From the IMG/VR virus record IMGVR_UViG_3300029305_004606, positions 128,001 through 192,000 of that record: a stretch of DNA of 64,000 bases. One strand, written 5' to 3'. Below are positions 12,693 to 40,449 of the stretch, piece after piece (positions within the stretch are counted from its first letter, which is position 1; each line of letters opens with the position of its first letter). The translations under genes were made by a program, and so were the position numbers. The notes below the pieces were generated by a model. The model was given only the letters and a program-made list of their open reading frames with translations, made no database searches and had not been told where the DNA came from. The stretch is from a virus. Lineage: Duplodnaviria > Caudoviricetes.

Positions 12693-15600
12693 ATGGCTAC
12701 AACTAATTCAAAGTCAAAAACTTATCTCAAAAATGTGGGAAAATCTTTTGGTTATGCTGCTATGGATGTATTCGAGCATTATAATCCTACCCTCACAAAT
12801 TTGTATAAGAGTAGTAAAGATGCTGTAACTGAAGCTAAACGTCTCTCTAGAGAAGCAAAGATGCAATTGCAGCAGGCTGAAGTTGACTCAGATAAGGGTG
12901 GTATGTCCTATATATTGGAAGATCTTGCTAGTGGTAAATGGTATAATAAAGAACGTCAAACTGAAGATGAAAGATACCTTAGCACGATCGCTAAAGAAGA
13001 AGATTGGGGAGATGACACTACGGCTTCTGCTGTAGCAGATACTGCCAGGGATGTAATGAAGCAAAACGAAGCAAGTACCAGAAAAATTTCTGATTCACTT
13101 GGTGGAGCTGCTCAGAGCATTTCAACATCTATTGGATATGCATCTGCACAATCTGCAGATTACATAGTGAAATCTTTTGGTGCTCAATCTAGAGCATTAT
13201 ATGGTCTTACAGCTAACGGGTTTGATAGAGTAACAAATGTGTTACTTAGTATAAATAATAGTATTGATGGGATTGCTAGTATGGGTGAAGGATTAAATGC
13301 TCATATGAAGAACTCTTCTATTTTTTATATTAATGCTACGCAGAGTTTGAATAGAATTGATACTAATATTGAAAAACTTGTTAAGATGCAGGAAGCTGCT
13401 AATAGATCTCCTAGAGGTATTAGTAGAAAAAATGTAAAAGGTATGGAAAACCTTATTGATTCTGATGGTAATATTGATCTTGTTGCTTACATGAAAATGG
13501 TAAAAGACAATATGGATCAGTATAAGACATTAGCTGAAGCTTTAAAAGATAAAAAGGAAGATTGGATCGGTAATAGAAAAGGTGGAAACATGCTTTCCAA
13601 TACTGTTGTTTCTGTTGTAGATGCAATGATTCCTAAAATGACTAAAGAAGCTATGAAGATAATGAACGAAACTCTCAGAGATGGTTTGATTGCCGGATTA
13701 GCCCGAGGTGGTATGAAAGCTAGAAGAAGTAACAATCCTGTTGCTAATCTTTTAGGCGAAATGTTCTTACCCAAGGATGGTTACAAGGATAAGCTTGATA
13801 CTTCCAATTATGAAAAAGGTCAGGTTGCTTGGGATGGTATTGCTAGAAAATCTTTAGTGGAAGTTATCCCTACATATTTGGCTAAAATTTACGCTGCTTT
13901 AGGTGGTGAAGAAAAGTACTTTGATTACGAAACAGGAAAGTTTGTAAAACTTGAACAAATAAAAGCTGATCATGAATATGACAAGAGAGTATCTGCTGTT
14001 AGAGCTGGAGGAAAAATGAGAACTGATATCCTTGCAGATATCAGGAAGAATGCACCGGCTCAAAGACAAGCTCAGTTAGAAAATGAAGTTGAAAGTTTCT
14101 TTTTACAAGCTTTTGTTGATGGATATGATTTTGTAGAAATTGCTCATATGATAAATGATGCTAATTTTAGAAGAAAGTATGGTATTACCAGAGAATCTGC
14201 TAAATATATCATTGATTATGTTGGAGCAAAAGATGCTACAAAAGCAAGAAGAGCTACAGGATTTGTAGCAGGTGTTGCTAGAGGAAGAAATGAATTTGGT
14301 AATACTATGAGAAGAAGAGAAGCTGCAGGTACATCTAATCTTGTATATGCTTCACATGGATTTGATGGAGGTCCTGCTGGAAATGCTATCAATCAATTTG
14401 CAACAATGACAGATAGTTTCGGCAAGACTCAGGCTTATTATCTTCGTGGTATTTATATGATGACTGGTAATATCTACGGAGCACTTCAGGGACAAGTTGG
14501 AGGTTCTTATAGAGTAAGACCTGATAGAAGAGCAACTGCTTCTACCTACTTTAATCCTGATACTGGTAGATATTCTAGAAGAAGACCTAGAATGACTGGT
14601 GGAGAAAGATCTAATATGGATAATCGCCAGCAAAGACAGGCTGCTTCTACAACAACTAGAAATCGTAATATAAGTATTGAAGATAGAGCAAAATATTATG
14701 GAATGTCAGATGATCAGATTCTTGAAGCAAAGAGAAGAGAAGAAATGGTCAAGAGAGCTCAACAGGCTTTTAATGGTCAGGAATTCACTCCTATTCAGGG
14801 AACAAGTGAAGATGGTCAGCCTAGAGTTAGATCAAGATTTGGTTCAGCTCTTGCTAAAGTAAAAGATTGGTATCAAGCTCCATTTGCTGCTATGACAGAT
14901 ATGATCAATAGCTTTACTCTCGGAATAAACAACATGTTCTGGGGAACAAAAGAGCGAAAAGGTCTTATTGATAAAATTTCTGATTATATGAAATCTCTTT
15001 GGACAAAAGTCTTTGGAGATGAAAATGGTCAGGGTGGAATTGGTATGCAGGCTGCCATGAAAGAAGAGTGGACAAAAATTAAGACTAAGGTTAAAGATAA
15101 AGCTCGAAATTTCATGGGTAATGTTGGTGCTAGAGACCGTGCTGCTGGACAAAGAGAAATTGCTCAAGCAGTGGCAAATCAATTTTCAGGTACTCAAGAA
15201 GTACCTGCTCATGCCCGGGGTCGTAGAATAACGAAGACTGGTCTTATTGCTGTATCTGAAGGTGAATTAGTAATTCCTTCCGAATTTAATCCATATTATC
15301 ATGGTAGAACTAACAAGAGACAGCAGATTAGAAATGAGCAGAGAATAATCAATAAATTCTATGGTGGATTTGCTACAGGTGGTACTGTCGGTGGAGCGTA
15401 TACTGATGGACAATTTGTAGAAGATGTAGATCCAATTACAGGAGAAAAAATATACAAATTTGTTAAACCTGATGGAACTGTAATTAGACTTAAGAAATCC
15501 GAATATGCCAAAAGATTAGCACAATGGAAGATTAAGCAAACTACTCAGGCTATTGATGATAATACTGGGGCAATTACAGCTGCAAAAGATGGTGTAAATC

Positions 15601-18600
15601 TTTTAGGTTCAGGATTAATGGATTTCATTAAAGCTTCTTTATTTGGTACTGATAAACAGCAGGAAGAAGATAAGAAGAAGATTAATATGAAAATGACTGA
15701 TATCTTTAAAGAGATGGGTCATGAAAAAGGAGCTATGGGTATTGGAGCTATCGGCGGACTTGGTGTATCTTTGTTAACTGGTGCTGTTGTGGGTCCTTTA
15801 GCTGGTGCTGCTTTAGGTGCTGGTGTTGGATTATTAGCAAAATCTGAAAAAGTTCAGAAGATGCTCTTTGGTGAAGTTGATGAAAATGGTAATTATGAAA
15901 AAGAATTTGGAAACTTTGTAATGAAGAAACTTCCTAATATTGGTGTAACTGCTGGACTTGGTTTGGCAGGTGGAGCTCTATTAGGATCTCCAATTATTGG
16001 ATTAATTGCTGGTTCTGCTATTGGATTTGCTGGACAATCTGATGCTGTTAAAGATAGACTGTTTGGTAAACTTGATGAAAATGGTGAAAGAAGTAAGGGT
16101 GGTTTAATTAATAAGGAACTGCGTGACAAAATTAAGAAAGCTGCTCCCAATATTGCTGCTGGCGGAATTGCTGGTTTATTAGTTGGACCTTTTGGTTTAG
16201 CTGGCAATTTGATTGTTGGTTCTGCCATTGGATATTTGTCAACTGGAGAAAAATTCCATCAGTATTTCTTTGGTGATGGAAAAGATGACAAAGGTCTTGC
16301 AGGAATTATTCATGAAAAGATTATTAAAGGTCTTGATGATTTAATTCATAATACTGGAAATGCTCTTAAAGGATGGATGAGAAAGACTGGAGCTAAAGTT
16401 GGTAGTAAAATTATGAGCTTTATTAGTAAAGCTCAGAATAAATATGAAACCGGTAAAGCTTCTGGATTAACTAAAGCTATAGGTTGGGCTGCAAGTGTGC
16501 CAGGTAAAGCTCTTAAAGGTGCAACTAATAAAGTTGGAGACCTTGTACAGGGATTAGCTGGTCATAGAAGAGCTAGAAACTTAGCTGAAGGTTATGATGT
16601 TTGGAATGCTGAAGCTGGTAGAAATGCTACTGCTGCTGAAAGATTAGGAATGAGATCTGATGATGATATTTCATCTGCAGCAAATATGGATAGAGCTATT
16701 GCTGGAGCAGACGCTGAACAACTTGCTCAGCTTAAGAATATGCTTACTGACCTTAGAGATCCTAAACTTGCTTTCCAAAAAGTAAAGGACAAATCTACAG
16801 CTACATTGTATTCTGAATTAATGGATGCAGGTATTACAGATAAGAAGCTTATTAAGAAAATTATCAAAGAAGCTGGATCCACAAATAGTACGATTAGATT
16901 GGAAGATTTGATAACAGGATATTCTGAAGATCAACAGAAAGCTATTAGAAAAGCATTTAATAAATCTGATAAAGAAATACAGGCAGCTAAAGATACTAAA
17001 ACTGTTACTAAAGGTAATCTTGCATTACTTAAAGATAAGTTTGGTATTAACTTAGAGGGAAGTTCTAATGCTGATATTGTAAATTATTTGAAAGCTATCG
17101 AGCATGATGAAAAAATACGATTCGGTGAAGATGGATCAGATTTAAATGCTAAAGAAGAAAAATATCAGGATAATGTAGTAACATTGTTAACTGATATGAA
17201 TAATAATATCTCTTTATTTACTGAATATATTACAGGTAAGCGTAATGCTGCAGGTAGATTTGATGGTAATATTGACAAAGAAGGTAATGCTCATTTCTGG
17301 GTACATGGTGACAGAGCAGTATCTGCTGAAGAAGCTATTGCTGGAGCAAGAGGTCAGAGAGATATTATGGAATTTGGTAGAGATACCAAGAATGCTATTG
17401 CCGAAACAACTACAAAAGTTATTGATACTGTAACTGAACCTATTAAAGATGCAGTTGTAGGTACATTTGACTTTGTAAAAGAAAAAGTTGTTACTCCTTT
17501 GTCTGATACTGTAAAAGCTGTAGCTCATACTGCTCAAGATTTATATGGTATCGGTATAAGAGGATTTAATGCTGCAAATCCTGATATTGATACTAGCAAT
17601 TATTATGGACCTACATCTGGAATTGATGTTGTAAATACTGCTCAGAGAACAGCTACAAGAGCTAGTTATCTTGGAGGAAGACTCAAGAGAGGAGCAGGTG
17701 ATGTAATAAAAGCTATTAGAGGCAAAGCTGAAGGTGGCACTATTTCTGGAGATAATACTTTCTTAGATATGCTTGCTGATAAAGTAATCGAAAAAGTTGG
17801 TGGAATCGGAGATTATCTCAAAGGTAAAATGGAATCTGCCAAAGAAAAAATCACTACACATGTTGATGCTTTTGGTAACGTTCATAAGATGACTACTAAT
17901 AATCAGGGCGAAACTGTAGCTGCTACAAATGATTCTACAACAAAGAAATCTAAAGCTGCTATGGATAAGTTTATGAATTCTGTAAACTCTATTCCTGGTA
18001 TGGCTACTGCTATGTCCGGACTATCAAGTATGTTTGGTGGTTTAAAAGACAAACTTCTTGGTGGAGATGAAGAAAAAGGACCTGGATTACTAGAACAACT
18101 TGTAAATGGTTTATTTGATGATACAGACGGATTTATTCCAAATATAATTAATCTTATAACCGGTGGTCAAGGTGGTGGTAAATTTGGTGGTATTACTTTA
18201 AAAAGTATATTTACAAATTTAATTGGACCTGGATTATTAGCAGCTGGATTTGCAGGAGTTTTTGATAATGCTTTTAAGGCTGCAACTGGTGGTGCTTATG
18301 GTAAAAAAGATAATGAAGAGTATTACGATAAAGAAACTGGTCAAGTTGTACAAAAAACTGCTGATGGACAATATACTGATGCTAATGGTAATATTGTATC
18401 TGGAAATATAGGTGTTAGACAGAACGATGTTGCTAGTTTTAGTGACAAATTGAAAGAAAATACAGCTAGAGGTGTTTTAACAAATACTTCTTCTGTTGCA
18501 AGTAAAGTTCTTGGAAATACTAATATTGGAAAGACTATAAGTGCTGCTGGTAGAACAGTTGTTAAAGCTGTTGGTGGAGATGCTGCTGCTATGGCAAGTA

Positions 18601-21600
18601 TTACAGATACTATATTAGATGCTTGTATTAAATTTACAAGTATGCTTGGCAAAATTCCTGCATTAAAAGGTATTGCTGGTAAGATTGATGATATGGGTCT
18701 CGAACTTGCTGAAAAGATTTCAACTAAACTTGCATCATCTGGAGCAAAATCATTACTTAGTAATGCTGCTAATTTTGTTGTATGGGCTAAAATTGCATTT
18801 ATTGTAGTAGACTTTACAACAGGTTATGAGGATGCTAGAACTACACTTGGTATTATAGATGAACCTACAGTTCCTCAGAAAATTATTGCAGGTTTATTAC
18901 GTGCATTAAAGAATTTAATTCCTGTAGTTGGTTCGTTAATTCCTGATAGTTTAGTAATAGATGTATTCTGTAAGTATATTGCTCCATTCTTTGGTATTGA
19001 ACCTGAAGGTTTAATGAAACAGAGAGAAGAAGCAGAAGCAAAAGTTGCAGAGTATAATGCTGCTAACGGTACAAACTATTCTGTAGGTGAGTATAATAAG
19101 GCTGTATTGCATGATTATACTTGGACAGAAAGAATCGGAAATGCTGCAAAATCTACTGTAAACGATGTTAAAGATAAATGGAATGCTGGTGTAACTGCTA
19201 TTAAAGAAAAAGGTTTAGGAGGAGCTATCAAAGATGGAATCTCTAATAACGTTGATATCTTTAAAGAAGCATTCAAAGGTAAAGATGGAGGTCTTGCTGG
19301 AGTTACTTCTGGTATAGGTGCTGTATTAGGAAATCTTTTACCTGGTGTCTTTGGAGAAGTTGCACAAAAGAACACTGAAATTCAAGCTCTTGCTTATAAG
19401 GGTGAGATTGGTGAAATGTGGAAAGTTGCTTTAAGTGACTTCAGTAAAGGTAGTGATGAGGAAGCAAATGTTGGTATATTTAGTAAAATTATCGGACAGA
19501 TTCCTTTATTATTTACCAAGATTAATATGACACCTTTAGCTTTAATCAATAAGGTTATTAGACCTATTATGGATAAAGCTGGAGATGCTTTTAAGGGTAT
19601 CATCGAAGGTGGAAAATATATTGCTACTCTTCCTGCTACTGTAGCTGCTGACACTAAAGCACTTGTATACAGTAAAGAAGATACAGATTTGAAGGATTTC
19701 TTCAATGTATCTAAGTATGAACAGCAAGGTGAAAATGGTTTCTATAATGGTATTATTAAGGCGGTCGCAATGACTAGCCGTGTAGCAAGTTTAGGAACTA
19801 TGATAGTTGGTGCTGTAGGTAAGAGAATTGGAAAAGCTTTTGTTGAAATTAAGGATAAAGTAGTAAACATGGGCAAGGCATTTATTAGCCTTGATACAGG
19901 TATTACAAGGAAAGCGTTAGAAGGTGACGTATCTAACATGTTCTCCTATGTATCTTCTTCTACTTCAGAAGATGCCAATAATCCTCTTGGATTTATTGGT
20001 AAAGTATATGGATATACTACTGCAGCCTTAAGAACTCCTCTTGCTTTAGTTTCTAAGGCAGGTAAAGCTATTGGTAAATTCTTAGTTGAAACAAAAGATA
20101 AAGTTATTACCATGGGTCAAGCTTTTGTAGCATTAGACTCTGGTATCACTAGAAATGCTTTAGCAGGTGATATTGGTGGTATGTTTAACCATGTATCTTC
20201 TTCTACTTCAGAGGATGCCAATAATCCTCTTGGATTCGTTGGTAAGGTGTATGGCTATGTAAATGCTGCTATGAAAACTCCTCTTGCTTTAGTTTCTAAG
20301 GCAGGTAAAGCTATTGGTGGATGGTTGACAAGTGTCAAAGATAAAGTAGTTACTGCTTTCTCTACTATGGCTACGATGGATCAAAGTATTACTGCAAAAG
20401 CTACAGCAGGTGATATAACTGGAATGTTTGACTATGTAGCTGGAGCTACATCAGAAGATGCCGAAAATCCTCTTGGATTTGTAGGTAAAGTATACGGTTA
20501 TGTAAACGCTGCTGGTAAAGTTCCTCTTGCTTTATTATCTAAAGCAGGTCAAGCTATCGGTGGATGGTTTGGTGAAAAAGTAGATGCGTTTAAGACAGAC
20601 GTTGGAACATTAGATTCTGCAAAAGAAGCTCTCAAGGGTATGAGTCAAGATAAATCTAGTTCTATTGGAGATATCATGGGCTATACAACAGAGTTTAGTG
20701 ATAATAATGTATTCAAGGGAATTTTTAACGCTATTTTCGGATTCCAAAAGATTTTCTATAGTGCTGCTAAACTTCTCGGAAATGTATTTGATGCAATCAG
20801 TGGAGTTGTAGATGGTATTAAAGATAAAGTCGGTGGAGTTGTAGATGCTGTTACTGAGAAAGTGTCTGGTGTTAAAGATGCTGTAGTTGAGAAAGTAGAA
20901 GATGTAAAAGAAGGAGCTAAGAAAGTTGTTAATAATGTTAAAGAAGGTGCCAAGAAAGCAGGAGAAACTGTCAAAGGATGGGGAGAAGCTGCTTGGGATG
21001 GTTTAACAGGATGGATAACTGGATCTGGTTCTGGATTTGTTTCTCAATATGATCCTAGATATCAGAATTATAAAGTATCTGGACAGAACTTTGCTGCTAA
21101 GGGTTGCGGTCCTGCTGTAGCTGCTATGGCTGGTAGAGCTCTTGGTAAGAATATTTCTGTTAATGATGCTGTAAATGGTTCTATTGGATATCAGAATGGT
21201 AACGGTGTATCTATTGATTACTTCCAGCAAATGCTTGGTTCTAAGGGAATCAATACTAGATATATTAGTGGTGGTTCTTCTGCTGATTTATATAACTCTA
21301 TTGCTAGTGGTGAGAAGGTTGTATTACTTGGTAGAGATCCTTATAATACTTCTAAAGAATATTCTCCTTTTGGACCTAACAATCATTATGTATTAGCTAC
21401 TGGTATCGATAGAAGAGGAAATGTTATTATTAACGATCCCGAAGCTAGAGGACCTAGAGCTTATAATCCTGCTATTTTGAATTCTGCTAAGTTTGGTGTA
21501 GCTGGTTCTAATAGTGGAATTGGAAGAAGAAGTTCTATTAGAAGATCCTCTAAAGTAAGAAATATTTTCTCAGGCGGATCTTCATATGATACAGAAATTG

Positions 21601-23369
21601 CTAAGCAAGTTTGGGCATTCTTTATTAATAAGGGATACTCTCCTGAATGTACTGCTGGTATTATGGGTAACATGTATGCTGAATCTGCAATGAATCCTAA
21701 AGCTATTCAAAACAATGGCAAAGGACCTGCTGCAGGTATTTGTCAGTGGGAAAACTATAATACTCAGTCTGGTAGATGGAGAAATCTTTACGAATATGCT
21801 AAAGGTAATAATAAAGCTTGGACAGATCTCGATATACAGTTAAGATTTATTCACCATGAGTTACAGTCCAAGGATATTGATAATAGATTATCTGGTAAAA
21901 CTGCATCTAGCAATATTACTAAGACTGGTCTTAATATCAGTAAAGCTATGCCTTATGCACAGTGGAAAGTATGTACAGATATTCCTACTGCTTGTTGCTT
22001 GTTCGAAGCTGCTTTTGAGCGTGCTGGAGTTGTAGCAATGGAGAAGAGAATAAATGCTGCTACTGCTTACTACAATTTATATTCTGGAAAGAGTTATAGT
22101 TATGATGGGTCTATCGGATCTGCTTCTTATACAAGTGATCCTAGTACATCTAGCTCTGATTCTTCTAATAATCCTGGATTATTCAGTAATATCTGGAATG
22201 TTGTTGGAGATATAGGAACTGCATTTTCTAATGCATTCGGAAAAGTCTTCAATAAGAATGATAAATCTGATAATCAGGAAAGACAAGTATATGGTAATAA
22301 TAGTACTGGTTCTAGTAAAGCATTAATAGCTACAGGAACTGCTCCTACAGGAGATATGGCAAATAACTTCCCTTACTTTGGTCAAGGTGAAGCTCCTTGG
22401 GCTACTGAATCTTATGGACAAGGAACTATTAAGTCATCTGGATGTGGTCCTACATCTATGGCTATGGTTGCTAAATCATATGGAATCAACACTGATCCTG
22501 ACAGATTAGCAGATTGGTCTGTAGATAATGGACATAGAATTCCTAATCAAGGTACAAGTTGGGCATTCTTCCCAGCTGCAGCTAAAGAATTAGGATTAAC
22601 GGCTGATCAATTCTCTTCTCCTGCAAAAGCTAAAGAATATCTGAATAATGGAGTACCTATAATCGGATCTATGATGCCTGGTGATTTTACCAAAGGTGGT
22701 CATTATATTGTATTCAGTGGCTTAAAGGGTGATAGAGTATATGTTAACGACCCTGCTTCTAGAAAGAGAACTGGTAATGTTTGGAATGTAGATTCTGCAT
22801 TTAGTCAGGCTAAACAGTTCTGGGCTATTTCTAATAATGGTGTAGGTTCTATTGATAATTCTAAATTATCTGCTGCAGGTTCAGGCTTAGTAAGCTATGA
22901 AGACCTTGCAAATATGTCTGGTGGTTCTTCTGGTATATTAATGAAAGCTAGACCTGGTTCTAGAAATAATATGCCTGCAAGATTATCTAACGGAAGATTA
23001 GTTCCTGTATCTAGTTTCTCTGGTGGAGCTACCACAGATGTAATGACTACTCAAACACAAGCAATGCTTACTAATATTAGTAAGAATGCAAGTAAATCTA
23101 ATAGTGGTATAAGTCCTGAACTTGTAACTAAGTTGCTCACTTCTATTACTCAGATCTTGCAGAATATTGCTAATAATACTGCTCCTGTAGGTAAGATTTA
23201 CCAGGCACTTCTGGCTTATGTACAGGCTGGTGGAGATTCAGGTATCAAGAATGATACTCCAACTCCTATCAAAGTCGATAAGACTAAGAATAACCAAACA
23301 CCTGAACCTGAGATCGATTCAAGTATCGCAAATCTTGTAGGTGTTCTTGCAGAACTTGCAAAGGGTTAA
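12693..23369 (+). CDS. Tape-measure / tail-associated lysin (3558 aa) with two C39-like peptidase domains and a phage tail lysozyme domain
   Basis: Long helical A/G/K-rich body with Gly-rich hydrophobic segments. C39-like motifs QYDPRY..GCGP..HYV..NDP and QGEAPW..GCGPTS..HYI..NDP. Phage_lysozyme2-like VWAFF..AGIMGNMYAES..GICQW. Baseplate genes lie nearby. Confidence 0.88.
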   Translation: MATTNSKSKTYLKNVGKSFGYAAMDVFEHYNPTLTNLYKSSKDAVTEAKRLSREAKMQLQQAEVDSDKGGMSYILEDLASGKWYNKERQTEDERYLSTIAKEEDWGDDTTASAVADTARDVMKQNEASTRKISDSLGGAAQSISTSIGYASAQSADYIVKSFGAQSRALYGLTANGFDRVTNVLLSINNSIDGIASMGEGLNAHMKNSSIFYINATQSLNRIDTNIEKLVKMQEAANRSPRGISRKNVKGMENLIDSDGNIDLVAYMKMVKDNMDQYKTLAEALKDKKEDWIGNRKGGNMLSNTVVSVVDAMIPKMTKEAMKIMNETLRDGLIAGLARGGMKARRSNNPVANLLGEMFLPKDGYKDKLDTSNYEKGQVAWDGIARKSLVEVIPTYLAKIYAALGGEEKYFDYETGKFVKLEQIKADHEYDKRVSAVRAGGKMRTDILADIRKNAPAQRQAQLENEVESFFLQAFVDGYDFVEIAHMINDANFRRKYGITRESAKYIIDYVGAKDATKARRATGFVAGVARGRNEFGNTMRRREAAGTSNLVYASHGFDGGPAGNAINQFATMTDSFGKTQAYYLRGIYMMTGNIYGALQGQVGGSYRVRPDRRATASTYFNPDTGRYSRRRPRMTGGERSNMDNRQQRQAASTTTRNRNISIEDRAKYYGMSDDQILEAKRREEMVKRAQQAFNGQEFTPIQGTSEDGQPRVRSRFGSALAKVKDWYQAPFAAMTDMINSFTLGINNMFWGTKERKGLIDKISDYMKSLWTKVFGDENGQGGIGMQAAMKEEWTKIKTKVKDKARNFMGNVGARDRAAGQREIAQAVANQFSGTQEVPAHARGRRITKTGLIAVSEGELVIPSEFNPYYHGRTNKRQQIRNEQRIINKFYGGFATGGTVGGAYTDGQFVEDVDPITGEKIYKFVKPDGTVIRLKKSEYAKRLAQWKIKQTTQAIDDNTGAITAAKDGVNLLGSGLMDFIKASLFGTDKQQEEDKKKINMKMTDIFKEMGHEKGAMGIGAIGGLGVSLLTGAVVGPLAGAALGAGVGLLAKSEKVQKMLFGEVDENGNYEKEFGNFVMKKLPNIGVTAGLGLAGGALLGSPIIGLIAGSAIGFAGQSDAVKDRLFGKLDENGERSKGGLINKELRDKIKKAAPNIAAGGIAGLLVGPFGLAGNLIVGSAIGYLSTGEKFHQYFFGDGKDDKGLAGIIHEKIIKGLDDLIHNTGNALKGWMRKTGAKVGSKIMSFISKAQNKYETGKASGLTKAIGWAASVPGKALKGATNKVGDLVQGLAGHRRARNLAEGYDVWNAEAGRNATAAERLGMRSDDDISSAANMDRAIAGADAEQLAQLKNMLTDLRDPKLAFQKVKDKSTATLYSELMDAGITDKKLIKKIIKEAGSTNSTIRLEDLITGYSEDQQKAIRKAFNKSDKEIQAAKDTKTVTKGNLALLKDKFGINLEGSSNADIVNYLKAIEHDEKIRFGEDGSDLNAKEEKYQDNVVTLLTDMNNNISLFTEYITGKRNAAGRFDGNIDKEGNAHFWVHGDRAVSAEEAIAGARGQRDIMEFGRDTKNAIAETTTKVIDTVTEPIKDAVVGTFDFVKEKVVTPLSDTVKAVAHTAQDLYGIGIRGFNAANPDIDTSNYYGPTSGIDVVNTAQRTATRASYLGGRLKRGAGDVIKAIRGKAEGGTISGDNTFLDMLADKVIEKVGGIGDYLKGKMESAKEKITTHVDAFGNVHKMTTNNQGETVAATNDSTTKKSKAAMDKFMNSVNSIPGMATAMSGLSSMFGGLKDKLLGGDEEKGPGLLEQLVNGLFDDTDGFIPNIINLITGGQGGGKFGGITLKSIFTNLIGPGLLAAGFAGVFDNAFKAATGGAYGKKDNEEYYDKETGQVVQKTADGQYTDANGNIVSGNIGVRQNDVASFSDKLKENTARGVLTNTSSVASKVLGNTNIGKTISAAGRTVVKAVGGDAAAMASITDTILDACIKFTSMLGKIPALKGIAGKIDDMGLELAEKISTKLASSGAKSLLSNAANFVVWAKIAFIVVDFTTGYEDARTTLGIIDEPTVPQKIIAGLLRALKNLIPVVGSLIPDSLVIDVFCKYIAPFFGIEPEGLMKQREEAEAKVAEYNAANGTNYSVGEYNKAVLHDYTWTERIGNAAKSTVNDVKDKWNAGVTAIKEKGLGGAIKDGISNNVDIFKEAFKGKDGGLAGVTSGIGAVLGNLLPGVFGEVAQKNTEIQALAYKGEIGEMWKVALSDFSKGSDEEANVGIFSKIIGQIPLLFTKINMTPLALINKVIRPIMDKAGDAFKGIIEGGKYIATLPATVAADTKALVYSKEDTDLKDFFNVSKYEQQGENGFYNGIIKAVAMTSRVASLGTMIVGAVGKRIGKAFVEIKDKVVNMGKAFISLDTGITRKALEGDVSNMFSYVSSSTSEDANNPLGFIGKVYGYTTAALRTPLALVSKAGKAIGKFLVETKDKVITMGQAFVALDSGITRNALAGDIGGMFNHVSSSTSEDANNPLGFVGKVYGYVNAAMKTPLALVSKAGKAIGGWLTSVKDKVVTAFSTMATMDQSITAKATAGDITGMFDYVAGATSEDAENPLGFVGKVYGYVNAAGKVPLALLSKAGQAIGGWFGEKVDAFKTDVGTLDSAKEALKGMSQDKSSSIGDIMGYTTEFSDNNVFKGIFNAIFGFQKIFYSAAKLLGNVFDAISGVVDGIKDKVGGVVDAVTEKVSGVKDAVVEKVEDVKEGAKKVVNNVKEGAKKAGETVKGWGEAAWDGLTGWITGSGSGFVSQYDPRYQNYKVSGQNFAAKGCGPAVAAMAGRALGKNISVNDAVNGSIGYQNGNGVSIDYFQQMLGSKGINTRYISGGSSADLYNSIASGEKVVLLGRDPYNTSKEYSPFGPNNHYVLATGIDRRGNVIINDPEARGPRAYNPAILNSAKFGVAGSNSGIGRRSSIRRSSKVRNIFSGGSSYDTEIAKQVWAFFINKGYSPECTAGIMGNMYAESAMNPKAIQNNGKGPAAGICQWENYNTQSGRWRNLYEYAKGNNKAWTDLDIQLRFIHHELQSKDIDNRLSGKTASSNITKTGLNISKAMPYAQWKVCTDIPTACCLFEAAFERAGVVAMEKRINAATAYYNLYSGKSYSYDGSIGSASYTSDPSTSSSDSSNNPGLFSNIWNVVGDIGTAFSNAFGKVFNKNDKSDNQERQVYGNNSTGSSKALIATGTAPTGDMANNFPYFGQGEAPWATESYGQGTIKSSGCGPTSMAMVAKSYGINTDPDRLADWSVDNGHRIPNQGTSWAFFPAAAKELGLTADQFSSPAKAKEYLNNGVPIIGSMMPGDFTKGGHYIVFSGLKGDRVYVNDPASRKRTGNVWNVDSAFSQAKQFWAISNNGVGSIDNSKLSAAGSGLVSYEDLANMSGGSSGILMKARPGSRNNMPARLSNGRLVPVSSFSGGATTDVMTTQTQAMLTNISKNASKSNSGISPELVTKLLTSITQILQNIANNTAPVGKIYQALLAYVQAGGDSGIKNDTPTPIKVDKTKNNQTPEPEIDSSIANLVGVLAELAKG
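19850..20580 (+). repeat. Three tandem ~243-nt (81-aa) repeats inside the tape-measure gene
   Basis: KDKV...SEDA(N/E)NPLGF(I/V)GKVYGY...PLAL(V/L)SKAG(K/Q)AIG occurs three times; TATCTTCTTCTACTTCAGA recurs 243 nt apart. Confidence 0.9.
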
Positions 23370-25041: not shown

Positions 25042-25527
25042 ATGGATTATAATAATATTATAGTACCAATTTCATTTGATCCGTCTCTAATTGGTCATAA
25101 TTTTATAATGATAGATGTACCAGGAGAACCTTTTGCTAAGCAGCGACCGAGAGCAGCTAAGAAGGGTAGATATATAACAATATATACTCCTAGAGAGACG
25201 AAACAATATGAAGAAAAAGTAAGAAAAGTTTATAATGCTATGTATGGAAGTTACCAATTAGAGGGTGACTTAACTGCTGAAATAGAAGGAACTTTTTCTA
25301 TTCCTAATTCTGTTTCCAAAAAGAAACGTCAAGAAATGATAGAAGGTAAAGTTCCACATACTAAAAAACCCGATTGTGATAATATGGGTAAAATTTGTTT
25401 GGACGCATTAAATGAAGTAGCCTATCCTGATGATGCAGCAATAAACAAATTATGGATTTCTAAAGAATATGGAGATATTGCTAAAGTGAGAATCACTATA
25501 ATAGAAAATAAAATGATATCAGAATAG
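25042..25527 (+). CDS. rusA: RusA-family Holliday junction resolvase
   Basis: PFAKQRPR, YTPRET..YE and KPDCDN.GK..LDALN.VAYPDD match the RusA signature. Confidence 0.92.
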   Translation: MDYNNIIVPISFDPSLIGHNFIMIDVPGEPFAKQRPRAAKKGRYITIYTPRETKQYEEKVRKVYNAMYGSYQLEGDLTAEIEGTFSIPNSVSKKKRQEMIEGKVPHTKKPDCDNMGKICLDALNEVAYPDDAAINKLWISKEYGDIAKVRITIIENKMISE

Positions 25528-25541
25528 GAGACTGAATAACT

Positions 25542-25916
25542 ATGGATATGAGTAAATATTATGAATATAGGCAAAAAATTAGAGCACTGTATGATCAGGA
25601 GCCGTTTAGTAGTAATGATCTTGGAAGTAAAATTCTTGAGATTAAAGATAAAAATAGGTGTATTGTATCTATGTCTTTAGATCTAAATGCTTATTACATC
25701 CAGGCTCAGTTTGAAGATGGAACACCGTTTGAGAAAGTTAATAAAATTTGCGATTCAATTCTTAAAAGAATTGGATATTATTTATCAGATAATATCGATT
25801 CTATTCCTGATCTTGAACCGGAAGATAAAGATGCGATTAGATCGATGTTAAATAATCCTGCAGCTACATATTGTGATCATATTGTGATTGGAAACATGGT
25901 TAAAATTAACCTGTAA
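25542..25916 (+). CDS. Hypothetical protein
   Basis: AGGAG RBS; 124-aa ORF. Confidence 0.8.
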   Translation: MDMSKYYEYRQKIRALYDQEPFSSNDLGSKILEIKDKNRCIVSMSLDLNAYYIQAQFEDGTPFEKVNKICDSILKRIGYYLSDNIDSIPDLEPEDKDAIRSMLNNPAATYCDHIVIGNMVKINL

Positions 25917-25929
25917 CAAACATAAATAT

Positions 25930-26036
25930 AATGAGTCGGATTGGACACCCGATCTCATAGCTTTTGGATAAAGCTAAAGTTGACATCACCTCAAAGCAGA
26001 ACCCCTAAGGCATTGCTGCCTTAGGGGTTTTGTATT
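25930..26036 (+). ncRNA. Candidate late small RNA (two hairpins, single-stranded anti-SD-like segment, terminator)
   Basis: Own AACA-N6-TA promoter at 25919-25930; hairpins at 25931-25958 and 25958-25976; ATCACCTC at 25985-25992; terminator at 25996-26033; no RBS-led ORF. Confidence 0.55.
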
Positions 26037-26038
26037 TT
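25996..26038. terminator. Bidirectional intrinsic terminator
   Basis: AACCCCTAAGGCA/TGCCTTAGGGGTT stem between convergent units. Confidence 0.85.
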
Positions 26039-26040
26039 GA

Positions 26041-27528
26041 TTATTTCATTCCATCTAATACTTTCTTAATATAAGCAGAATCTACTTTATCAAGCTGCAA
26101 AGTATTAACAGTTTCTAAGAAACCATACATAACCTTAGAAGCTTCTACAATAAGATCTGTATCAAGAGTACCGGATTCGGTAATATAATTTTCTCTTACA
26201 ACTTCATCTTTGATGATACTTCTAGAAAGGTTTCTAGACATCTTTTCGAATACTGTCATATTACGATGCTCTTTAATACTGTCGATATGTCTCTTATAGA
26301 TTCTAACTGATTCTTCAGCAATCTTAGCTTTAGTTTCATCTTTACCGTCAAGATCTTCAATAGTCTTAACATTGTTAGAAATCTTGTTAAGAAGTTCATC
26401 AATCTTTTTCTTATCTTCAGCATTATTTCTGATGAAAGTTTCCTCAGCATCTGCGATTCTAGAACGAATGATTTCTACTGCTTTCTGAACATCTTCTTCT
26501 TTGTTAAGTTCATCGAAGATTTTACCATCATTTCCAGTATGTCCATCAATAGTAGTATCCTGATCTACACCATCATCATCTAACGGTTCACCAAGTTCAT
26601 CATCAACATGATCCTCTACATCTTCTTTAGAAGGCTCGTCATCAGAATCATCGTCTTCATCATCCTCGTCATCGTCATCCTTGTCATCATCTTTAGGATC
26701 ATCTTCAAAGGTAGTATCTTTCAAAGGATCTTCATCTTCTTTCTGCTTTTCATCTTCTTCAGATTTTTCTTCACCAGCAGGTTCTTCAGGAGCTTCTCCT
26801 TCTTCCTTTTTATCTTCACCTTCTTCAGGTTTATCTTCAGATTTAGGAAGCTGAAGTTCTACTTCTTCCTTGCTTTCATTGTCTGCGTCTTCTTCAGCAG
26901 CTTTCTTTTCTTCTCTCTTTTCTGCAGCCTCTTCAGATTTTCTCTCTTCCTCTTCTTTAGCAGCAGTAAAGATCTGACTCATAAAGTCATGTACATCTTT
27001 CTTTCTTGCAGTTTTAAGAAACTCTGCAGCAGCTGCAATAGCAGCATCTTTCTTCTTTGAACCTGAATTTTCTTTTTCATCAGAATCTTCAATAGGTTCT
27101 TCTGCTTCGATTTCTTTTACATCTGCTTCAGCAGCATCTTCTACAATCTGAGTAATTCTAGAAAGCAAATATGTTTTGTTTCCTACTTTACTAAGAATAG
27201 CAGATGCACCACCATTTTCTTTGATCCAGTTTTCTACCATACTCTCTGCAAGAATGATACCATCATCTGTGAGGGTAGAAGCTTCAAGAGCTCCGATATA
27301 GATAGCTTTGATAACTGTACCAAAAGCTTCATTTCTAGCTGCTTCCATAAGAGCTGCTCTAGAAGAAGCCTTACGATTTCTCATATCCATAATAGTATGA
27401 TACTTATTGTTGAACTGTTCTCTCACAGCAACTTTCTCGTTAACAGCATTGATTTCTCTCTGTGCTAACTGAGAACGAGACTCAGCGAGATTCTTATATG
27501 ATTCTACAACTTCGTTTTCACGTCTCAT
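26041..27528 (-). CDS. Highly acidic late protein (scaffold or internal head protein candidate)
   Basis: Long E/D-rich middle region, AAAGGAGG RBS and its own late promoter; function inferred. Confidence 0.75.
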   Translation of the reverse strand: MRRENEVVESYKNLAESRSQLAQREINAVNEKVAVREQFNNKYHTIMDMRNRKASSRAALMEAARNEAFGTVIKAIYIGALEASTLTDDGIILAESMVENWIKENGGASAILSKVGNKTYLLSRITQIVEDAAEADVKEIEAEEPIEDSDEKENSGSKKKDAAIAAAAEFLKTARKKDVHDFMSQIFTAAKEEEERKSEEAAEKREEKKAAEEDADNESKEEVELQLPKSEDKPEEGEDKKEEGEAPEEPAGEEKSEEDEKQKEDEDPLKDTTFEDDPKDDDKDDDDEDDEDDDSDDEPSKEDVEDHVDDELGEPLDDDGVDQDTTIDGHTGNDGKIFDELNKEEDVQKAVEIIRSRIADAEETFIRNNAEDKKKIDELLNKISNNVKTIEDLDGKDETKAKIAEESVRIYKRHIDSIKEHRNMTVFEKMSRNLSRSIIKDEVVRENYITESGTLDTDLIVEASKVMYGFLETVNTLQLDKVDSAYIKKVLDGMK

Positions 27529-39744: not shown

Positions 39745-40449
39745 ATGATTATAAATGAAAATATTCAGAATATGATTATTAGTAAAAGATTGGGTATCCT
39801 TGAATCTGAATTGTCAGATTTTAGAGAAGATTTTAAAGCTATTTTGAATGAAGATTTCTCTATTGTGTTAGAAGAAGGTACAGACACTAATAAAGAAATG
39901 ATTGCAATGTTTAGAGCTGATGTAAAAGAATACAAGGCTTATTTCAAATCTGGTATGAAGGCATATAAAGCACACGACAACCAGGAAGCTATTGTTCAGT
40001 TTACTCGTGCTGTTAAAGTTATTACAGAATTGGATAATAAATTAAGACATATTGATTTATCTACCAATTCTGCTCTTATTAGTAATATTTTAGGAGCATT
40101 AATTTTATTAGGACCATATACAATTGCTCAGTGCTTTTTCTTCTATAATATGAATAAAGCTGAGAAGAATATTCCAATGTTTGTTTGGGCTACAAGCGAT
40201 GAAGAAATGGATGCTAAAATGAAAGTTATTAAGAAAGAGAAAGCAAAATATTATGGTAGTGCTGTTGGCAGTATTATAACATCTCTTGTTGCAATTGTAA
40301 AGAGTACAAAGCTTATTAAAACAAATTTAAGCAAACGTTTTTATGGTAAGCCTAGTGTTCTGAGAAATATGCTGGTTAGCTATATATCAAATTTTAAAGA
40401 TGTATGTGAAAATTACATTAAGATGTGCAAAGAAGCAGATAATAAATAA
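39745..40449 (+). CDS. Putative internal head protein, paralog family with 53632 and 54675
   Basis: Acidic leader, then EGTDTNKEMIAMF, a helical hairpin and a hydrophobic segment. Confidence 0.72.
   Translation: MIINENIQNMIISKRLGILESELSDFREDFKAILNEDFSIVLEEGTDTNKEMIAMFRADVKEYKAYFKSGMKAYKAHDNQEAIVQFTRAVKVITELDNKLRHIDLSTNSALISNILGALILLGPYTIAQCFFFYNMNKAEKNIPMFVWATSDEEMDAKMKVIKKEKAKYYGSAVGSIITSLVAIVKSTKLIKTNLSKRFYGKPSVLRNMLVSYISNFKDVCENYIKMCKEADNK

What the first reader, a model, noticed from the sequence alone, without database searches (positions are those of the whole stretch)
25919..26036. Candidate late sRNA displaying a mimic of the 16S rRNA anti-Shine-Dalgarno tail
Seen: a perfect late promoter (AACAtaaataTA) sits after the stop of 25542..25916 with no gene to drive. 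The ~105-nt transcript would fold into hairpin 1 (ATGAG-TCGG/CCGA-TCTCAT), hairpin 2 (TAGCTTT/AAAGCTA), an unpaired segment containing AUCACCUC, and the terminator. Known: the 16S 3' end reads GAUCACCUCC. Inference: a phage sRNA that pairs with GAGGUG(AU)-type RBSs and represses host or early mRNAs late in infection. GAGGTG RBSs in this window precede 31666, 46978, 58979 and 63081.
Basis: partly seen in the sequence, partly recalled or inferred. Interest (0 to 1): 0.75.

Follow-up and report, generated by a model that had tools for sequence, protein, structure and literature searches.

The report
Jumbo-phage RNA silencing one early gene
A clade of uncultured giant phages keeps a roughly 105-base RNA gene, predicted to switch on late in infection, whose exposed middle matches the ribosome-binding site of one small early phage gene 49 kb away, so it probably shuts that gene off, although nobody has yet seen the RNA.

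Summary
The unit is real at sequence level. In this 201-kb AR9-like jumbo phage, the 124-nt spacer holds an AR9-type late promoter (+1 at 25930), hairpin 1, hairpin 2, an open segment and a terminator. All nine lineages of the clade that I could read keep it. The promoter's AACA and TA are invariant, hairpin 1 shows compensatory changes, its loop keeps (G/U)GAC(G/A), hairpin 2 is optional, and ACCU is invariant. Outgroups lack it.

The '16S mimic' reading is only partly right. The conserved segment is longer (consensus UUGACAUUCACCUC). Its exact complement occurs once in the genome, on the RBS and spacer of an unannotated 61-aa early gene outside the window (G000:105144-105329). That gene ranks first for the window RNA (-20.0 versus -11.6 kcal/mol) and for four other lineages' seeds, and it is missing from the outgroup genomes checked.

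Best reading: a late trans-acting antisense RNA blocking translation of that gene (0.62). No transcript data; relatives' target DNA and host targets untested. This scan noted similar anti-RBS RNAs in other jumbo phages.

The parts
25919..25930 (+). AR9-type late promoter AACA-(6N)-TA; predicted start site A25930
   Evidence: Matches the AR9 consensus; AACA and TA invariant in 13 rows while the six middle bases vary; 6-nt spacing enriched upstream of genes in this genome
25930..26038 (+). Predicted small RNA of about 105-109 nt (99-160 nt to the next stop codon in relatives)
   Evidence: Same order of parts in nine lineages; a model built without L037, L039 and L041 finds all three at E 2e-7 to 5e-9 (the model includes short coding flanks); no Rfam family
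25931..25958 (+). Hairpin 1, 7-14 bp across the family, beginning at +2 or +3; probably protects the 5' end
   Evidence: Outer five pairs formed in 12 of 12 rows; pair 3 G-C in 8 and A-U in 4, pair 4 A-U in 8, G-C in 3, G-U in 1, pair 5 G-C in 9, A-U in 2, G-U in 1, pair 6 U-A in 6 and A-U in 4
25940..25948 (+). Loop of hairpin 1 with the conserved motif (G/U)GAC(G/A); partner unknown
   Evidence: GAC invariant in all rows, always at the 3' side of the loop
25958..25976 (+). Hairpin 2, variable and optional
   Evidence: Different sequences still pair in most lineages; about 55 nt in L037, absent in L039, not folded in L030
25980..25992 (+). Seed, complementary (14 bp with one bulged target A) to the RBS, spacer and first base of the start codon of a 61-aa gene outside the window, G000:C1:105131-105144 (locus L068:5132-5145)
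   Evidence: Best trans hit genome-wide and among 200 start regions; exact complement of the family consensus occurs once in 201 kb
25996..26038 (+). 17-bp intrinsic terminator with U-rich tail; the ancestral two-way terminator of the convergent gene pair
   Evidence: a terminator hairpin at this place is the only thing in the 40-45 nt spacer of most outgroup phages
25542..25916 (+). Upstream 124-aa gene of unknown function (context), after a RusA resolvase gene at 25042-25527
26041..27528 (-). Convergent 495-aa gene with its own late promoter motif (context)

Best explanation
A late, trans-acting antisense RNA with one main phage target. Once the phage's non-virion RNA polymerase is made, it transcribes a roughly 105-nt RNA from 25930 to the old two-way terminator. 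Hairpin 1 and the terminator cap the ends and leave the seed open. The seed pairs over the Shine-Dalgarno sequence and spacer, up to the start codon, of the 61-aa gene at G000:105144-105329, second gene of a unit that starts at an early-type promoter. This blocks 30S loading and stops synthesis of an early protein that is no longer wanted late in infection. Shown: sequence anatomy, conservation, covariation in hairpin 1, complementarity, co-absence in outgroups. Inferred: transcription, late timing, pairing in the cell, repression, and why the protein must be turned off. Odds by step: real RNA gene 0.9; works by pairing with a ribosome-binding site 0.75; this gene is the main target 0.62.
For: Promoter, stem covariation and terminator conserved in nine lineages. 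The exact 14-nt complement of the consensus seed occurs once in 201 kb, on an RBS; chance that one of the 21 GAGGUG starts is followed by those 8 bases is about 0.0009. With structure counted, the window RNA binds this start region at -20.0 kcal/mol and the next best of the 40 top candidates at -11.6. Seeds of the window, L020, L025, L037 and L039 all rank it first of 200; for the last three the gap is 5-9 kcal/mol. With the anti-SD core held fixed and the flanks shuffled, L037's 15-bp run has P = 0.0004, L039's 0.019, L025's 0.032. An early-type promoter lies before the upstream gene (consensus). The target family is clade-restricted; it is absent at the syntenic place in G002, G003 and L070 and from complete genome G004; the loci of G002-G004 at the RNA's place hold only a terminator. 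Many homologues start Met-Ser, and the seeds read backwards as SD plus AUG/UUG-UCA.
Against: The window's own seed has a one-base gap and is not significant alone (4 of 50 shuffles as good; longest perfect run P = 0.30). The five top-ranking seeds share ancestry and are close to one test. Seeds of L022, L017, L030 and L041 rank this genome's site 3rd, 7th, 11th and 31st; this is expected if their own targets changed in step, but I could not fetch their target DNA, and L017 is the closest relative. The invariant loop motif is unexplained. The 16-mer target site is an ordinary RBS seen in 48 unrelated viral contigs, so host genes may carry it too.
Confidence: 0.62

Rival explanations
1. One reading: a broad anti-Shine-Dalgarno RNA that mimics the 16S tail and dampens many GAGGUG-type messages of phage and host.
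For: ACCU invariant and mostly unpaired; 21 phage starts carry GAGGUG and 69 GAGGU; secondary matches at G000:30399 (PD-(D/E)XK exonuclease-like) and 39904.
Confidence: 0.12
2. The main target is a host mRNA whose start region reads GAGGUG then AUG-UCA; the match to the phage gene is secondary or chance.
For: The site is a common Bacillota-type RBS; seed variants in four lineages could follow different hosts; lambda PreS targets a host mRNA (PMC12197685).
Against: A phage site matches at P about 0.001, the gene is confined to the same clade, and L039's seed extends into the AU-rich bases upstream of this very RBS.
Confidence: 0.1
3. A protein-binding RNA (decoy or scaffold) that presents GAC twice, in the loop and in the open segment.
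For: The loop motif is the best-held sequence outside the promoter and has no convincing RNA partner; GAC recurs in the seed of eight of nine lineages.
Against: It does not explain the 12-15 bp match to one RBS; GGA is not invariant, so a CsrA sponge is unlikely; L017 lacks the second GAC. The loop could bind a chaperone within the best explanation.
Confidence: 0.08
4. Not a stand-alone RNA: a 3' untranslated tail of the rusA-25542 message, a micro-ORF, or a DNA-level element.
For: The unit sits between a stop codon and the operon's terminator, so read-through transcripts will contain it; no expression data.
Against: A promoter with invariant key bases directly at the foot of hairpin 1 in every lineage; neither the plus-strand 9-codon frame nor the minus-strand 26-codon frame is conserved.
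Confidence: 0.08

Closest known systems
c4 antisense RNA of phages P1 and P7 (PMC12197685)
   Same: Phage RNA that blocks the ribosome-binding region of a phage mRNA through exposed complementary sequence.
   Different: Temperate-phage immunity control; no Rfam C4 match here. Here a jumbo phage, a late promoter of the phage's own polymerase, and a target 49 kb away.
csRNAs of Streptococcus pneumoniae (PMC4507080)
   Same: 87-151 nt RNAs with sequence complementary to the SD and start codon; specificity comes from pairing between SD and AUG.
   Different: Chromosomal, CiaR-driven, five redundant siblings; no sequence match. This RNA is single-copy and phage-encoded.
Late sRNA1 and sRNA2 of Pseudomonas phage PAK_P3 (PMC4933390)
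   Same: About 100-nt intergenic RNAs abundant late in a lytic infection; sRNA1 has an 11-nt match in an early phage gene.
   Different: Their targets are untested and not reported as lying on an RBS; unrelated phage and sequence.
Late transcription units of Bacillus phage AR9 (PMC5312081) and sRNA005 of phage 201phi2-1 (PMC11512511)
   Same: Same late and early promoter motifs as AR9; conserved structured small RNA in jumbo phages.
   Different: The AR9 paper reports cis-antisense transcripts, and my search of its text found no small RNA; sRNA005 derives from a 5' UTR and has no known target. AR9 is only about 25% identical in a neighbouring protein.
C-rich-seed sRNAs of Bacillota such as RsaE/RoxS and prophage SprX (from memory, not checked here)
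   Same: Unpaired C-rich segment aimed at SD sequences.
   Different: They use UCCC motifs and have many targets; this family uses ACCU and looks single-target.

Membership tests
AR9-type late transcription unit | AACA-(6N)-TA/G with the last base as start site | tested here: met
AR9-type late transcription unit | Phage encodes its own multisubunit RNA polymerase | tested here: inconclusive
   One beta-like subunit found at G000:59776-60597; I did not assign virion versus non-virion sets
AR9-type late transcription unit | Mapped late 5' end | not testable with these tools
Trans-acting base-pairing sRNA | Own promoter and terminator, no conserved reading frame | tested here: met
Trans-acting base-pairing sRNA | Conserved accessible seed complementary to a distant start region | tested here: met
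   partly sequestered in the window's best fold, opening costs 1.5 kcal/mol
Trans-acting base-pairing sRNA | Seed and target change together between lineages | tested here: inconclusive
   Only indirect: Met-Ser N-termini of target homologues fit the seeds of L025, L030 and L039, but the proteins could not be tied to those contigs and no target DNA of relatives was obtained
Trans-acting base-pairing sRNA | Repression shown by reporter and compensatory mutants | not testable with these tools
   Bench experiment
16S anti-SD mimic | CCUCC core of the anti-SD | tested here: not met
   After ACCUC comes A, G or U; L039 has CCUUC
c4 RNA (Rfam C4) | Match to the family model | tested here: not met
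   No hit at gathering score or among matches to E 10
csRNA | Match to the Rfam models; CiaR-box promoter; sibling copies | tested here: not met
   single copy
CsrB/RsmZ-type CsrA sponge | Several GGA motifs in loops | tested here: not met
   One loop; GGA lost in L025 and L041
Type I antitoxin RNA | Target is a small hydrophobic membrane toxin encoded next to or opposite the RNA | tested here: not met
   Target is a basic, soluble-looking helical hairpin 49 kb away; toxicity itself not tested

The most novel reading that the evidence does not exclude
AR9-like jumbo phages enforce their early-to-late switch partly with dedicated trans-acting RNAs: short late units that arise in front of existing terminators and copy the complement of one early gene's start region. 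This family would be a one-to-one pair (RNA plus 61-aa early protein) gained by a single clade, and the same spacer was filled by unrelated anti-start-region RNAs in sister lineages.
Probability: 0.4. Interest if true: 0.78.

Novelty: new variant of a known kind. Interest (0 to 1): 0.6.

Why it matters
The papers read here say that small RNAs of lytic phages are seen but their functions are mostly unknown (PMC8244752, PMC4933390, PMC11512511). This case supplies a defined RNA family, a defined seed and a named target, so it can be tested in a laboratory Bacillus strain without culturing the phage. If true, it shows how a jumbo phage turns off an early gene after transcription, and flags a 61-aa protein of no known family as one whose timing matters, the profile of a host-takeover or counter-defence factor. 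The mechanism itself (blocking an RBS by pairing) is well known, and this scan has noted similar RNAs in other jumbo phages.

Tried and rejected
Rfam: no family at gathering score; the weak hits are terminator-hairpin chance matches. No tRNA or tmRNA in the window. No second copy in the genome. Plus-strand 9-codon frame and minus-strand 26-codon frame: not conserved. TTGACA as a sigma-A -35 box: no -10 at 16-18 nt. First impression that the element is unique: the first ten syntenic relatives had only a terminator; closer ones overturned this. MAFFT and RNAalifold do not align the variable hairpins, so model R1 holds only terminator pairs; pair counts were made by anchoring at the stem base, which leans towards the structure. 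Loop pairing with a GCGUC site 65 nt into the target frame: the site is rare (9 in 182 kb of coding sequence) and lies on invariant Glu-Arg codons, but the window's own loop mismatches it and several homologues have Thr or Ala next; kept as a weak lead. Target function: nothing significant in Pfam, PHROGs, PDB sequences, Foldseek or the ESM Atlas. The supplement of PMC10690425 is not held, so overlap with that catalogue of viral structured RNAs is unchecked. The family tree is the quick one only.

Full report
Setting. The window is bases 128001-192000 of a complete 200,990-bp viral record of 31% G+C. A neighbouring protein is about 25% identical to one of Bacillus phages AR9 and PBS1, the genome encodes an RNA polymerase beta-like subunit, and strong AGGAGG-type RBSs suggest a Bacillota host (inference). 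The finding lies in the 124-nt spacer between 25542..25916 (+) and 26041..27528 (-). Close relatives come from ENA and Logan assemblies; from memory, some sample names point to ruminant gut studies, which I did not verify.

Observation. The promoter fits the AR9 late consensus and that spacing is enriched upstream of this phage's genes. Two caveats: the strong folding score belongs mostly to the terminator, and the window's best fold half-buries the CACCUC segment, the open form lying 1.5 kcal/mol higher.

Conservation. Distant relatives have a 40-45 nt spacer with only a two-way terminator. Relatives whose 124-aa protein is 43-99% identical all have a 111-180 nt spacer. In the nine lineages I could read, AACA and TA are invariant while the six bases between vary. 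Hairpin 1 starts at +2 or +3; its outer five pairs form in 12 of 12 rows, with both-sided changes at pairs 3 to 6 and lengths of 7 to 14 bp. Its loop always ends in (G/U)GAC(G/A). Hairpin 2 changes sequence, grows to about 55 nt in L037 and is missing in L039. ACCU is invariant, just before the terminator. On a quick tree of the downstream protein the RNA-bearing rows form one side of a branch; one gain is compatible with this, not proven. No reading frame is kept on either strand, and Rfam has no match. This is the pattern of a real non-coding RNA gene.

Not a 16S mimic. AUCACCUC is found in only three lineages and CCUCC in none. What is held is a longer segment, consensus UUGACAUUCACCUC.

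The likely target. A genome-wide scan with the seed gave, as best hit in trans, position 105131. It is the only exact complement of the consensus in the genome and covers the SD and spacer of an unannotated 61-codon gene, 105144-105329. The window's RNA pairs there with 14 bp and one bulge. With folding costs included it scores -20.0 against -11.6 for the next of the 40 best candidates. Seeds from L025, L037 and L039 match this genome's site even better (12, 15 and 13 perfect pairs) and rank it first by 5-9 kcal/mol. Holding the anti-SD core fixed, those runs have P = 0.032, 0.0004 and 0.019. These are not independent tests, and the window's own seed is not significant alone. Four lineages (L022, L017, L030, L041) fit this genome's site less well. 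The gene follows 104164-105123 with an early-type promoter upstream. Its protein family has only a few dozen known sequences; matching contig lengths suggest that it shares contigs with the RNA's neighbour gene in two cases (174,923 and 74,289 bp). It is missing at the syntenic place in three outgroup genomes and from a complete fourth. The model is a helical hairpin with no informative match.

Indirect sign of co-change. Homologues begin Met-Asn or Met-Ser-Met in close relatives and Met-Ser-Cys, -Asn, -Tyr, -Ser or -Lys further out. Read backwards, L025's seed gives AUG UCU UGU (Met-Ser-Cys) or a UUG UCA start at normal spacing, L030's gives SD, five bases, UUG UCA AAA (Met-Ser-Lys), and L039's gives AUG UCA AAU (Met-Ser-Asn). 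The proteins could not be tied to these contigs, so this is a lead only.

Mechanism and rivals. Most likely the RNA is made late and blocks 30S loading on the early 61-aa gene (0.62). Rivals: broad anti-SD damping (0.12), a host target (0.10), a protein decoy through the GAC loop (0.08), a mere 3' tail (0.08). The loop motif remains unexplained under the main reading.

Known kinds. It works like c4 of P1/P7 and the streptococcal csRNAs but belongs to neither family. Lytic and jumbo phages are known to make small RNAs whose targets are untested. Earlier notes of this scan describe similar late anti-RBS RNAs in other jumbo phages, two with target co-change claimed; I did not test them, and I saw them after finding the target here. 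Verdict: a new family of a known mechanism in a setting where, in the papers I read, none has been validated; interest 0.6.

Noticed in passing
L047, L050, L057, L064, L055, L056 (same spacer in sister lineages): The spacer holds different 110-230 nt inserts, most with a late-promoter-like motif near the upstream stop. In L047 and L057 the insert read backwards gives GGAGG, a spacer, then ATG CC. TAT (Met-Pro-Tyr): unrelated anti-start-region RNA candidates at the same site. No gene starting that way was found in this genome.
   Followed up: partly
G000:C1:80463 leftwards (outside the window): Second orphan late unit of the same build (5' hairpin at +2, middle stem, terminator) but another middle sequence; weak hit to model R1, E 0.0015.
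   Followed up: partly
G000:C1:112121-112250 and 126333-126620: Further orphan late promoters followed by structured, G+C-rich, ORF-free DNA.
   Followed up: no
G000:C1:105209-105214 (L068:5210-5215): Rare GCGTC on invariant Glu-Arg codons of the target gene, written with uncommon codons GAG CGT; could pair with the GACGC loop of most family members but not perfectly with the window's own loop.
   Followed up: partly
window 26012-26019 versus L029: The centre of the terminator hairpin is inverted between this genome and a 99%-identical relative, as expected from recombination within a palindrome or from assembly.
   Followed up: no
G000:C1:72331-72591: Weak match (E 0.003) to the 61-aa family profile; possible distant paralogue with a different RBS.
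   Followed up: no
G000:C1: about 20640-20740, minus strand: A tRNA-like gene directly after a late promoter, outside the window.
   Followed up: no
G000:C1:30399-31253 and 39904-40212: Second-rank seed matches: a PD-(D/E)XK exonuclease-like gene and a 102-aa unknown gene; possible minor targets.
   Followed up: partly
window 12693-23369: 3558-aa protein; its orthologues carry Peptidase_C39_2 and Phage_lysozyme2 hits.
   Followed up: no
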